DNA of 64,000 nucleotides, from NCBI RefSeq assembly GCF_009914755.1, contig NC_060934.1; one strand, 5' to 3'. Both the position numbers and the translations under genes were made by a program. The DNA comes from the human T2T-CHM13v2.0 reference genome, Homo sapiens. How positions within the stretch are numbered: the first letter of the stretch is position 1; every line of letters begins with the position of its first letter. Under the pieces are notes generated by a model. It did no database searches. It saw nothing but the letters and a program-made list of their open reading frames with translations, and was not told where the DNA came from. Below, piece by piece: positions 27,800 through 35,007 of this stretch.

Positions 27800-28780
27800 G
27801 CTACTGAAGGATAATGGAAGTTTTATGGATGAACTGAAATAGAAGGTTCTTAGAAGAGTCAGCTGCATGTGCACAGGCATGGACAGAATTTACAGTGGTC
27901 ATATTTTGAGGAAACAGTTATCTGTCACCAGTGCAGCAGAGGGTCGTCAGTATAGTGCCTGGAAAGGTGATAGATCAGACAGTTGGAGGACCTCTAACTA
28001 TACATGAAAACATTGAAACATTGACATTTTTCTTGTTTTCTTTAAAAGTTCTTGTGCAAAGAGTTGACATGACTAGATTTACATTTGAAAATGTATGGCA
28101 GAGTGAGATAAGGATTAGAAGGGGGAGAGAGTAGAGGCGAGGGGATCACTTAGGAGGCCAGATCAGTGGTGCAGGGCAGAGATAGTGGTGGCCCACAGTA
28201 GATCCATACCTGTGGGAATGTGAAGGAAGGATGAATATGAGAGATAGACAGAGATAGAACCAATATGACCAAATATACACAAGAGAGATGGGGAAGAGTT
28301 AAAAAATGAATCCAATCTTTTGAGCCTAGGTGAGTGCAATAATGCTGATGCCATTTACCATGATAGGGAACCCGAGGAAAACAGTGGTTTTGAGGTTAGG
28401 AGAAAATGAGTTAGGTTTGAATCGCAGGTTGCAATGGGACTTCCAGATAGAAGTATGTAGCAGGAGAGAGGTAAAAGTTAGAAATGAAGATTTGCAAGTC
28501 ACTCATGTAAAACTAATAGTTGACGTCATAGTGTTATGTGAGTTTTCCTCAATGAGAGAAAGCAGGGCTAGCAAAAAGAAAGCCCAAAACAGAATTTTGG
28601 GAAAACACCTATCATCTATGGGCTAGGGATGAAATGTCAACAAAACAAATTGAGAAGGTGGTGTCAGAAAATAATTGGGAGATTAATTTATTATATAGAA
28701 ACTTAGGGAAGGGGACTACTAGAGACAAAGTATATAAAAAGGGGTCACATGCTTCCCCATGTCAGAGGGTCCTAAAGTGA
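27800..28780 (-). mobile_element. L2 fragment(s)
   Basis: Purine-rich degenerate L2 antisense motifs (gatgccatttacca..gggaa, gaaaatgagtt..gtttg); approximate ends. Confidence 0.6.
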
Positions 28781-29560
28781 TGATGATCGTGATGATGACC
28801 ATGATCATGATGATTGTCACTAACATTTATTGGTTGATTACTCTGTGCAAGCATGATTAGAAGGTATATAATTATTTGCATGTATTAGCTGATTGTTCAC
28901 TTAGGTTGTGGGTTTTATTACAGTGTTGGAGGCATAAATCATGGTGGAAGAGCTTCAGGACTTAGTGGAAAGTGGAATTAGTGATTGACCTGATATGACT
29001 TTTCCTTAAAGCACATTTATCTGCCAAGGGATCCAATTTTCAAAAAAGCATAGTCAGATTTACCACCAACTCTACAATTCTTGTTTATAATTAATTTATT
29101 TCATTTTTTGTGGTTCTTTGATGCTTGTCATTTCCTATCAATTTTGATTATCCTACCCCTTGTAGTAAGATTGCTTTTGATTTTGAGATGAAAAGAATTT
29201 GCTTTGTGCTGTGTGAACTAAACTTAACTGGGGACATTAAACTGCTGCACATGACAGAGAGTAAAGAGCTCTGACCCCGGGATTGCTGTAAGCTCATAAG
29301 CAACTGGAGTAGTGTCGAGTTTCCATGAAGGCTGGCACTGAGAGAGTGCTGGGACTCTGTGGACAGCAGTCATGTTGCTCCAGAGCTGAAAAGGGAGAGC
29401 CCCTACTCTGACAGCTACTTTGTATCAACTATGTTCTGCTTTGGCCTCATACATTCTGTGTTTGTTCCCCTGAGGTATCAATGAACGCTAGAGTTCTCTC
29501 ATAGCCATGAGACACAAGAGAATTGGTTTAGAACCAGAAGAGCCGATGTAAATTCCCTGT

Positions 29561-29646
29561 ATGGATTATTCAGATACTGACAGTGACGCCACTTTGGGAT
29601 ACAGCGATGATGAAGATTCCAGTGACGAAGTTCAAAGAATATCAGA
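29561..29646 (+). CDS. PRKG1: Candidate alternative internal first coding exon of PRKG1 (MDYSDTDSDATLGYSDDEDSSDEVQRIS + GA)
   Basis: ATG at 29561 with an in-frame upstream stop (TAA 29549-29551). Donor-like AGA|GTCAGT at 29647 is phase 2, matching the 34942 acceptor. Region looks repeat-free with locally retained CpGs. No transcript evidence available to me. Confidence 0.55.
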
Positions 29647-31019
29647 GTCAGTGCACGGAAACCTATATTTGCAAATATTTTGGGATATTTTTCATGCTCT
29701 ATTGTTTCACTGAAAGGAATTTCTAACACATCTGAAAATGTTAGAAGTGGCTTAAAAAGAGGCCACTACTAAACTGCATAGCTTTGATTGTAATTACTAA
29801 TTAATCAGCAGCAATTTTGTAAAAATACCTGTTAATCTGCCAAACAGTAGCTACTTTTGCAGTAGTGCTTTTTAAAGTATTTATTAACTGCACACCGAAA
29901 TCAACTAATACAGAGGCACAGAACTAGATAAGCGTGAGATTTTATTTTTAGAGACAATTTGCATGTTGGATGTGGACTGTTATGTGGCTAGATATACATT
30001 TATTTATTATAAAAAAGCAAGTCTAGTGTGCTGAATGTTCAGAGGTAATGTGTGTTTGGTAAAAGTTTTTAATTAAATAAATTGAACATTATAACCCTAG
30101 TTATAAAGTTCTCTTGTGTTCAATATTTTACCAAAATGTCTTGTATTCTTCTATTAGAAATTATTAAATACCCTGATCTGTAAAAAAGTACAAATGAAAG
30201 TAAGTTCAGTTTTTAAAAAATAATGCTTTTCTCCTCTCTTTCCTTGTCCTGCTTCTAAACCGCTCTGACGTGAAATGCCCGCTAACTTGGTAGATGTTCT
30301 GTGTGAAACCAGTATCATAACATCTACTGATAAAAATACATTTAATAACCCAGATTTATTAAGACCTTTGTATTATATGAATATGTAATATTACATCTTT
30401 AAATTCAAATGATATTTGCTTTACCATGGTCCTTGGACCCATAAAAGATATAAACATACATAGTAAATCACAGTGTTGTCAGCTTCTATCATTGACATTC
30501 TCTCTTTAGAAGTTAGAAATTTCTACTATCACTCCTAAAATGAGAGATTAATACATGTCATATACTAATGTCAAGGATTAATATATATGTTAATACTAAG
30601 TCAGATAGTATTTTGTCTCTATCTCTAGCAGGCTTTGAGTGCACAAGAACAGAATTTACAGACACCCTCTTAGAGAGCTACAAGCACCTTAATAATAGAA
30701 ATAAAATGACACCGTCATGGCAACATGAGTTTGCCATTGAATGAGCTTGGCGACGAATAATTCTCTATTGTTAGGCAACATTATTACAAAGCAATATAGC
30801 AGGCTAGGACATAGCTATGGATGGGAATTCTAACAATTTTAAAATGAAAATGACCCTTTCATATTAGTTTTACAATTGGAAACCCATAACTCTATTAGTG
30901 CTGGTTCTATTAACAAGTAAATATAATTTTCATAATGATGGACAGTGAATACTTACTGCTCAAAGGTTATTCAACATTTTAATGAATGTTGAGTTTAAAT
31001 CTGATAGCAAAGCATATAA

Positions 31020-34941: not shown

Positions 34942-35007
34942 GGAAGATGTGAGAACAGCAAACGTAATTGCTGCAGAAGCTGTAACCTGCCTTGTGATTG
35001 ACAGAGA
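34942..35007 (+). CDS. PRKG1: PRKG1 internal coding exon (probably exon 8), 66 nt, phase 2-2; phosphate-binding cassette end of cGMP-binding domain B
   Basis: Acceptor ...ttttcacatAG|G and donor GA|GTAAGT. Translates (G)EDVRTANVIAAEAVTCLVIDR(D), matching the PKG-I sequence I recall. Contains the R-T pair of the CNB-B cassette (R316/T317 in PKG-Ibeta numbering). Confidence 0.97.

What the first reader, a model, noticed from the sequence alone, without database searches (positions are those of the whole stretch)
29561..29652. Candidate internal first exon encoding a truncated, potentially cGMP-independent PKG-I (PKM-zeta-like)
Seen: an ATG at 29561, with an in-frame stop 9 nt upstream, opens MDYSDTDSDATLGYSDDEDSSDEVQRIS. 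It ends at AGA|GTCAGT, a donor-like site in phase 2, the phase needed by the PRKG1 exon at 34942 (GA+G = Glu), giving ...[13 protein letters not shown].... Six CpGs survive in about 180 bp (29480-29660) of an otherwise CpG-depleted intron, inside a roughly 2 kb block where I recognise no repeats. The ORF track missed it because it is under 60 aa. Established: the PKG-I N-terminus holds the leucine zipper, the autoinhibitory pseudosubstrate, CNB-A and the first half of CNB-B; PRKCZ makes constitutively active PKM-zeta from an internal promoter. Inference: this transcript would encode a roughly 400-aa monomeric kinase with an intact catalytic domain and no intact cGMP site or autoinhibition. I cannot exclude that it is already listed as a minor or predicted isoform.
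Basis: partly seen in the sequence, partly recalled or inferred. Interest (0 to 1): 0.82.

Follow-up and report, generated by a model that had tools for sequence, protein, structure and literature searches.

The report
Conserved candidate alternative 5' exon in PRKG1
A short, single-copy stretch inside a PRKG1 intron keeps its start codon, its 28-codon acidic reading frame and its splice-donor-like end in 26 related sequences from other sources, so it is probably a real alternative 5' coding exon, but whether it is transcribed, spliced or already listed in gene catalogues could not be checked here.

Summary
There is an ATG at 29561 and an in-frame TAA at 29549-51. Twenty-eight codons plus GA end at AGA|GTCAGT (exon end 29646). 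Phase 2 fits the PRKG1 exon at 34942. Six CpGs lie in 181 bp.

The ORF-plus-donor layout alone is not beyond chance. Nineteen donor sites in the 35 kb upstream of the exon give an equally good layout, and the donor is weak.

Conservation is what lifts it. Twenty-six database ORFs from unnamed sources are orthologous. M1 and the S-E-S-V codons across the donor are invariant in 27 of 27 rows. The 28 residues match the consensus at 92.7% of cells. No reading-frame change was seen between 29561 and about 29655. Frame shifts and scattered stops begin 10-45 nt after the donor.

The locus is single-copy in the human genome, has no paralogue and matches no Rfam family.

The predicted product is about 403 aa: the acidic peptide plus PKG-I beta residues 313-686. 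That is the tail of CNB-B and the whole kinase domain.

Not shown: a transcript, a start site, the junction, translation or activity. Three upstream ATGs argue against efficient translation from a long leader. Seven literature searches found nothing. RefSeq, GENCODE and UniProt isoform lists could not be consulted.

The parts
29561..29646 (+). Candidate coding part of the alternative 5' exon: ATG, 28 codons of an acidic Ser/Asp-rich peptide, then GA (phase 2).
   Evidence: Conserved in 26 orthologous ORFs, with 92.7% of cells equal to the consensus and M1 invariant in 27/27 rows.
29644..29652 (+). Donor-like site AGA|GTCAGT (GT at 29647-48).
   Evidence: Crude score 2.9 against 6.4 and 8.2 for the two annotated donors in the window. 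The codons spanning it (S28 E29 S30 V31) are invariant in 27/27 rows.
29653..29692 (+). Conserved flank after the donor, where the reading frame begins to differ between species (intron-like behaviour).
   Evidence: Residues 32-40 match the consensus in 78% of cells and residues 41-50 in 44%. Frame switches map to about 29656-29692.
29549..29551 (+). In-frame TAA 9 nt before the ATG. It closes a 14-codon upstream ORF in human.
   Evidence: Three of the four ORFs that extend upstream have a residue here and read through from an upstream Met (P0002, P0003, P0004); the fourth (P0021) is open from further upstream.
29507..29551 (+). Upstream ORF MRHKRIGLEPEEPM-stop, in frame with the main ATG. Its last codon is another ATG at 29546.
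   Evidence: It is homologous to the N-terminal extensions of P0002, P0003 and P0004.
29481..29504 (+). Third upstream ATG with a 7-codon ORF. Its stop TAG also supplies an acceptor-like AG at 29503-04.
   Evidence: Read.
29460..29476 (+). Pyrimidine-rich run ending in AG|GT (AG 29473-74), which could be an acceptor or a donor. This leaves open that the ATG exon is internal.
   Evidence: Read. The same stretch appears conserved in the upstream part of P0021 (by eye).
29480..29660 (.). Local CpG cluster (6 CpGs).
29200..29500 (.). Local G+C rise (0.49 against 0.355 for the window). A promoter or 5'UTR here is an inference only.
   Evidence: The upstream part of P0002 is Ala/Arg/Gly-rich, which suggests G+C-rich DNA in that source.
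34942..35007 (+). Annotated PRKG1 exon that would accept the candidate exon. It encodes [21 protein letters not shown] of CNB-B.
   Evidence: It matches PKG-I chains in the PDB at 21 of 21 residues in the three alignments printed.

Best explanation
29561-29646 is the coding part of a real, evolutionarily constrained alternative 5' exon of PRKG1. Translation would start at the conserved ATG and make a 28-residue acidic, serine-rich peptide. The exon would be spliced from the donor at 29646/29647 to the exon at 34942. The product would be about 403 aa, consisting of that peptide, one Glu from the split codon, and PKG-I beta residues 313-686. Those residues are the last helices of CNB-B, the linker, the full catalytic domain and the C-tail. 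It lacks the leucine zipper, the autoinhibitory pseudosubstrate, CNB-A and the cGMP-binding barrel of CNB-B, so it should be monomeric and active without cGMP. Shown here: the sequence features, single-copy status, conservation of the ATG, the frame and the donor codons, loss of frame conservation after the donor, and phase compatibility. Inferred: transcription (from a nearby promoter or from an upstream non-coding exon), use of the junction, translation, and constitutive activity.
For: Sequence and phase. Conservation: 2 related ORFs of 89-2000 aa and 26 of 27-207 aa, the 2 among the 26. Aligned with the human ORF they give 27 rows and 22 distinct 28-mers. Invariant in 27/27 rows: M1, S4, D5, D7, S8, D17, D19, S20, E23, S28, E29, S30, V31. 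The S-E-S-V block is the longest invariant run and covers donor positions -3 to +6; at the protein level it fixes -2, -1, +2, +3, +5 and +6. Cells equal to the consensus: 701/756 (92.7%) in residues 1-28, 81/81 in 29-31, 177/226 (78%) in 32-40 and 93/212 (44%) in 41-50. ORF ends scatter from 37 to 118 aa. The tails switch among the three human frames at about 29656-29692, and none of the 26 changes frame inside 29561-29655. Twenty-three of 27 rows start exactly at M1. In human the upstream frame carries stops. One copy in the genome and no paralogue. No Rfam family. CpG observed/expected is 0.75 against 0.18 for the window. The sense-strand C-to-T change at the in-exon CpGs would be synonymous, so their survival fits low germline methylation (inference). 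The downstream exon is PKG-I CNB-B. Chain offsets in 4ku7 (position 97 of 153) and 7lv3 (244 of 617) place it at beta residue 313 (construct limits recalled). N-terminally truncated PKG-I is constitutively active in vitro, and so is the proteolytic PKG-I gamma fragment (passages of PMC10299703).
Against: There is no transcript, start-site, junction, ribosome or peptide evidence of any kind; the tools hold none. The donor is weak: it is non-consensus at -2, -1 and +3, its crude score is 2.9, and 317 of 1798 GTs upstream of the exon score as high. The layout alone occurs 28 times (19 donors) by chance in 35 kb. Three ATGs (29481, 29507, 29546) lie within 80 nt upstream, so a leader starting further 5' would hamper translation. 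The start context has T at -3. Detection bias: only ORFs of at least 27 aa that share words with the query can be found, so lineages that lost the ATG or the frame would be invisible. No DNA of the orthologues could be fetched, so synonymous against non-synonymous change, and the G at donor +1, could not be tested. The 36 nt after the donor are also conserved (78%), as expected for a non-coding conserved element. No spliced protein carrying the peptide was found among database proteins of 89-2000 aa; this is weak evidence, because that database appears to be prokaryote-style ORF calls on contigs. The sources of the 26 ORFs are unnamed, so the taxonomic depth is unknown. The full HMMER search found no more distant relatives.
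Confidence: 0.55

Rival explanations
1. It is a conserved non-coding element, such as an intronic enhancer or splicing-regulatory element of PRKG1, whose core happens to be open in one frame. The ATG and the donor-like site have no function.
For: Conservation runs past the donor (78% in the next 9 codons) and upstream (62/78 cells, 79%, in the 20 columns before M1; only 4 rows). Cores of conserved non-coding elements also lack indels. Protein-level data cannot show synonymous change. The donor is weak and the layout is common by chance.
Against: M1 is kept in 27/27 rows and is the ORF start in 23/27. The most invariant block sits exactly on the donor. Frame-breaking indels start right after it, with none in the 95 nt before. 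The phase fits the next exon (1 in 3 by chance).
Confidence: 0.22
2. The exon or ORF is expressed but not as a PRKG1 kinase isoform. Either an unspliced small protein is made, with a conserved roughly 34-40-aa acidic head and a variable tail, or the exon belongs to an unannotated nested transcript that splices elsewhere.
For: All 26 database ORFs are unspliced readings. The first 34-40 residues are conserved.
Against: The tails differ in frame and end anywhere from 37 to 118 aa, which is unlike a selected protein. No other gene is annotated in the window (hub table). The donor codons are invariant.
Confidence: 0.1
3. It is a cassette ('poison') exon spliced into canonical PRKG1 transcripts through the AG at 29473-74 or 29503-04. 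It brings in stop codons and lowers PKG-I output.
For: Acceptor-like sites with pyrimidine runs lie upstream. An exon of 172 or 142 nt (from 29475 or 29505 to 29646) would shift the canonical frame, and read from 29505 the canonical frame meets a TGA inside the exon (read by hand).
Against: A poison exon gives no reason to keep the ATG and an open acidic frame up to the donor in all retrieved sequences.
Confidence: 0.08
4. It is a chance ORF in neutral intron, with no function.
For: Twenty-eight comparable layouts occur in 35 kb.
Against: The 28 residues match the consensus at 92.7% of cells across 22 distinct versions, while the neighbouring sequence in the same ORFs falls to 44% and shifts frame. 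There is a CpG cluster.
Confidence: 0.04

Closest known systems
PKM-zeta from PRKCZ (recalled knowledge, not from a call)
   Same: An AGC-kinase gene in which an intronic start would give an mRNA for the catalytic domain without the autoinhibitory N-terminal part, and so a second-messenger-independent kinase.
   Different: For PRKG1 no promoter, transcript or protein is shown here. The candidate adds a new 28-aa acidic N-terminus and keeps a remnant of CNB-B.
PKG-I alpha and PKG-I beta, the two accepted PRKG1 isoforms made from alternative first exons
   Same: Same gene and same principle: alternative 5' coding exons joined to common exons (passages of PMC10299703).
   Different: Alpha and beta exons both encode a leucine zipper and an autoinhibitory segment and join upstream of CNB-A. 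The candidate joins about 220 residues further on, at beta residue 313, and encodes neither element.
PKG-I gamma proteolytic fragment and engineered N-terminal truncations (delta 1-77)
   Same: PKG-I species that lack the autoinhibitory part and are constitutively active (passages of PMC10299703).
   Different: Those are made by proteolysis or in vitro and keep a complete CNB-B. The candidate would be genetically encoded and would keep only the end of CNB-B.
Drosophila foraging isoforms P2 and P4
   Same: PKG-I orthologue products from internal promoters that lack the zipper and the autoinhibitory sequence (passage of PMC10299703).
   Different: I did not check whether they keep the cGMP-binding domains. 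There is no sequence relation to the acidic peptide; the full HMMER search found relatives only at the orthologous locus.
Testis-specific truncated kinases from intronic promoters, such as FerT
   Same: The same kind of arrangement. FERT is named among genes expressed from intronic promoters in germ cells and cancer (passage of PMC10832218).
   Different: PRKG1 does not occur in that paper's main text (0 occurrences). The tissue for the candidate is unknown.

Membership tests
Protein-coding alternative 5' exon of PRKG1 | Start codon followed by an open frame up to a GT donor | tested here: met
Protein-coding alternative 5' exon of PRKG1 | Donor close to the consensus | tested here: inconclusive
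   AGA|GTCAGT matches 6 of 9 consensus positions. Crude score 2.9 against 6.4 and 8.2 for annotated donors; 317/1798 GTs score as high (matrix recalled).
Protein-coding alternative 5' exon of PRKG1 | Phase compatible with the downstream exon | tested here: met
   86 nt gives phase 2, and exon 34942 starts with the third base of a codon.
Protein-coding alternative 5' exon of PRKG1 | ATG, frame and donor conserved across species, with the frame not conserved outside the exon | tested here: met
   This is protein-level evidence only, the sources are unnamed, and the detection bias is stated in the report.
Protein-coding alternative 5' exon of PRKG1 | Codon-type substitution pattern (excess of synonymous change) | not testable with these tools
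   No orthologous DNA could be fetched. The search with the overlapping frame found nothing.
Protein-coding alternative 5' exon of PRKG1 | Transcript with the junction 29646->34942, and a start site | not testable with these tools
   No RNA-seq, CAGE or EST data are held.
PKM-zeta-like constitutively active kinase isoform | Product lacks the autoinhibitory and ligand-binding parts but has a whole catalytic domain | tested here: met
   The entry point is beta residue 313 in CNB-B. The domain map is recalled. The downstream exons were not assembled.
PKM-zeta-like constitutively active kinase isoform | Internal promoter; activity without the second messenger | not testable with these tools
   Needs CAGE or 5' RACE and an enzyme assay.
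CpG-island promoter | At least 200 bp, G+C at least 50%, observed/expected at least 0.6 (recalled criteria) | tested here: not met
   181 bp, G+C 42.5%, observed/expected 0.75. The highest G+C in any 200-bp window nearby is 0.495.
Repeat, transposon-derived or retro-copied ORF | Other copies or a parent gene in the genome | tested here: not met
   One DNA match. The protein search found only itself and an E=2.4 match. No in-window repeats.
Known structured RNA (Rfam) | Match to a covariance model | tested here: not met
   0 matches at E<=1 in 28500-30500.

The most novel reading that the evidence does not exclude
Mammals have a third, genetically encoded PKG-I isoform that has been overlooked beside alpha and beta. 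It would be a roughly 403-aa monomeric kinase with a conserved acidic, CK2-site-like N-terminus and no working cGMP site or autoinhibitor. It would be transcribed from within the PRKG1 intron, possibly in the germ line given the surviving CpGs, and would phosphorylate PKG substrates independently of cGMP.
Probability: 0.3. Interest if true: 0.8.

Novelty: new member of a known kind. Interest (0 to 1): 0.6.

Why it matters
The paper read here (PMC10299703, passages) describes PKG-I signalling through two isoforms, alpha and beta, both held off by an N-terminal autoinhibitor and switched on by cGMP. A conserved, genetically encoded form without either cGMP site or autoinhibition would be a cGMP-independent arm of the pathway. 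It would escape drugs that act through cGMP, such as NO donors, sGC stimulators and PDE5 inhibitors. It would be missed by antibodies and knock-outs aimed at the N-terminal exons. It could also complicate the reading of PRKG1 alleles that leave the 3' half intact. The claim is cheap to test against public RNA-seq, CAGE and Ribo-seq data. If the exon is already in RefSeq or GENCODE as a predicted model, the new element is the evidence of selective constraint and the functional prediction. Neither appeared in the open literature searched.

Tried and rejected
1; the 28-aa peptide was too short for the protein search. It was re-sent as the 50-aa ORF.
3. A profile search of the own genome is not accepted. 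The single protein was sent instead: no paralogue.
4. One search searched with the overlapping +1 frame (29562-29723). The aim was to recover the nucleotides at the donor, since Ser against Asn there would tell GAG from GAA. No candidate was found, so donor +1 stays untested.
5. Orthologous DNA was sought in viral contigs (13 pattern matches, none confirmed) and in genome contigs (one search gave no answer; 2 pattern matches, none confirmed). Metagenome scans are capped at 0 and were not tried.
6. The full HMMER search of 1.84 billion representatives gave 7 hits at E<=0.001. Five belong to the same locus family. P0029 (7497 aa, 19 stretches) matches in many short stretches and was not examined further. 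P0030 (724 aa) is an unrelated repeat protein. So there is no deeper homologue and no parent domain.
7. Rfam gave nothing.
8. Seven literature searches found nothing. They covered peptide words, junction peptide words, guessed accession numbers, and phrases for a third, truncated or internal-promoter PRKG1 isoform. Main texts only were searched; supplements and subscription journals were not.
9. The transposon-derived or retro-copied idea was rejected because the locus is single-copy.
10. A CpG island was rejected on G+C and length.
11. The spliced product was not assembled, folded or searched.

Full report
**The observation**

The window is human chr10, inside a PRKG1 intron of more than 35 kb, upstream of the exon at 34942. 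Reading the sequence confirms each point of the finding:
- An ATG at 29561.
- An in-frame TAA at 29549-51.
- The frame MDYSDTDSDATLGYSDDEDSSDEVQRIS, followed by GA|GTCAGT. The last exon base would be 29646.
- That is 86 nt, so phase 2. The annotated exon starts with G and then GAA GAT GTG AGA ACA GCA AAC GTA. The split codon gives Glu and the PRKG1 frame continues.
- Unspliced, the ORF is 50 aa.
- Six CpGs lie in 29480-29660, with observed/expected 0.75 against 0.18 for the whole window. Only 45 of 6382 sliding windows of that size hold six or more.
- G+C rises to 0.49 at 29200-29499, against 0.355 overall.

**Is the layout more than chance?**

By itself it is not. I enumerated every ATG-initiated open frame in 1-34900 that ends at a GT in phase 2, which gave 625 combinations. 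Of these, 104 have a donor score at least as high as the candidate's. Twenty-eight of those have at least 20 codons, at 19 distinct donors, the candidate included.

The donor is weak. It departs from the consensus at -2, -1 and +3. Its crude score is 2.9, against 6.4 and 8.2 for the two annotated donors in the window. Of 1798 GTs, 317 score as high. The scoring matrix was recalled from memory and is only a rough stand-in for MaxEntScan.

**What lifts it: conservation**

A search of the 5.8-billion-protein collection with the 50-aa ORF found two longer ORFs, at 84% and 75% identity. A profile built from these found 26 ORFs of 37-118 aa, clustered at 90% identity, from unnamed sources. One of them (P0006) is the human sequence itself, read through its TGA. 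Aligned with the human ORF they give 27 rows and 22 distinct versions of the 28-mer.

- M1 is present in 27 of 27 rows and is the first residue of 23 of 27.
- Invariant residues include S28-E29-S30-V31, the longest invariant run. These codons span donor positions -3 to +6. At the protein level they fix -2, -1, +2, +3, +5 and +6.
- Agreement with the column consensus is 701/756 (92.7%) in residues 1-28, 81/81 in 29-31, 177/226 (78%) in 32-40 and 93/212 (44%) in 41-50.
- The fall at the end is due to indels. When each tail is aligned to the three human frames, four ORFs leave the human frame just after 29656 and about a dozen do so between 29679 and 29692. The ORFs end anywhere from 37 to 118 aa. 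None changes frame within 29561-29655.
- Upstream, the human frame carries three stops within about 100 nt. Only four ORFs extend upstream. The far-upstream part of P0002 matches a different human frame.

The pattern is therefore frame-free, then frame-kept from the ATG to the donor, then frame-free again. That is what an exon looks like.

**Limits of that evidence**

- The collection holds prokaryote-style ORF calls. A lineage that lost the ATG or the frame would leave no ORF long enough to be found, so failures cannot be counted.
- Only proteins could be retrieved, not DNA, so synonymous change and the donor G at +1 are untested. Orthologous DNA was sought without success. A search with the overlapping frame, meant to recover the nucleotides, found nothing.
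- The 36 nt after the donor are also fairly conserved, and only four rows show the upstream flank (79%). A conserved non-coding element with a fortuitous frame therefore cannot be excluded.
- The sources are unnamed, so taxonomic depth is unknown. The very different tails argue for wide divergence. The full HMMER search of 1.84 billion representatives found nothing more distant than this family (7 hits, of which 5 are family, one is an unrelated repeat protein, and one 7497-aa protein matching in 19 short stretches was not examined further).

**What it is not**

- It is not a repeat or a retro-copy. Region 29300-29760 occurs once in the 3.1-Gb genome. The peptide has no paralogue; the only other match has E=2.4. 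There is no in-window repeat.
- It is not a known RNA family.
- It is not a CpG island by the usual criteria: 181 bp and G+C 42.5%.

**What would be made**

The exon at 34942 matched, at 21 of 21 residues in the three alignments printed, the CNB-B segment of solved PKG-I structures. It sits at position 97 of the 153-residue chain of 4ku7 and at position 244 of the 617-residue chain of 7lv3. With the construct limits as I recall them, both put its first full codon at PKG-I beta residue 313.

The product would then be 28 + 1 + 374 = about 403 aa. It would consist of the acidic peptide, the end of the phosphate-binding cassette and the last helices of CNB-B, the linker, the whole catalytic domain and the C-tail. 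It would lack the zipper, the autoinhibitory segment, CNB-A and the barrel of CNB-B.

Truncated PKG-I without the autoinhibitor is constitutively active in vitro, and so is the proteolytic PKG-I gamma fragment (passages of PMC10299703). Cyclic-GMP-independent activity is therefore a reasonable inference. Stability of a form carrying a CNB-B remnant is unknown. The acidic Ser/Asp tract looks like a cluster of CK2-type sites (recalled motif, not tested).

- Nothing shows a promoter.
- Acceptor-like AGs with pyrimidine runs lie at 29473-74 and 29503-04. The ATG exon could therefore be internal, fed either from an upstream non-coding exon or from canonical exons. In the latter case it would be a frame-breaking poison exon.
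- Three ATGs (29481, 29507, 29546) precede the start within 80 nt, and the start has T at -3. Unless transcription begins between about 29510 and 29555, translation would rely on leaky scanning or re-initiation.
- In three of the related ORFs (P0002, P0003, P0004) the 29507-equivalent ATG is in frame and open, so the N-terminus may differ between species.

**Known or new?**

Seven searches of the open full-text library found nothing. They covered the peptide, the junction peptide, and phrases for a third, truncated or internal-promoter PRKG1 isoform. A 2023 paper still describes mammals as having PKG-I alpha and beta (passages). Supplements and subscription journals were not searched.

The hub table says RefSeq holds 7 PRKG1 transcripts and shows one. 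I could not see the other six, nor GENCODE, nor UniProt isoforms. The exon may well be a catalogued model already.

**Verdict**

The element is real and constrained. It is most likely (0.55) an alternative 5' coding exon of PRKG1 that gives a regulatory-domain-less kinase. The main rival (0.22) is a non-coding conserved element. In kind it is a new member of the class of truncated kinases made from intronic starts, with PKM-zeta (recalled) as the functional analogue. Membership of that class by mechanism is untested.

Noticed in passing
P0006 (database protein) against window 29561-29755: The database copy identical to the human ORF is 64 aa, not 50. It reads the TGA at 29711-13 as Trp and stops at the TAA at 29753-55. 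That ORF was evidently called under a TGA=Trp code, which is an artefact of gene calling on host-derived contigs.
   Followed up: partly
P0028: This 37-aa relative differs from P0024 only by changes that a C-to-T conversion would cause (Ser to Leu or Phe, Thr to Ile, His to Tyr). It looks like a bisulfite-type converted copy rather than a real variant. It is not in alignment A2 and so did not enter the conservation counts.
   Followed up: partly
window 29325-29411 and P0002 residues 1-30: The human ORF MKAGTERVLGLCGQQSCCSRAEKGEPLL, in a different frame from the candidate, resembles the Ala/Arg/Gly-rich N-terminal part of P0002. Homology therefore reaches at least 240 nt upstream of the ATG, and that source seems much more G+C-rich there. 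This may be a promoter or CpG island that has decayed in human.
   Followed up: no
window 28775-28815: An imperfect (GAT/CAT)n run (gatgatgatcgtgatgatgaccatgatcatgatgatt), with a TATA-like gtatataaaaagg at 28730-28742 just upstream. It was not examined.
   Followed up: no
window 29654-29665: Human (and P0006) has His-Gly-Asn where 21-24 of 27 rows have Arg-Lys after the His. This is a lineage-specific change in the first 20 nt of the putative intron.
   Followed up: no
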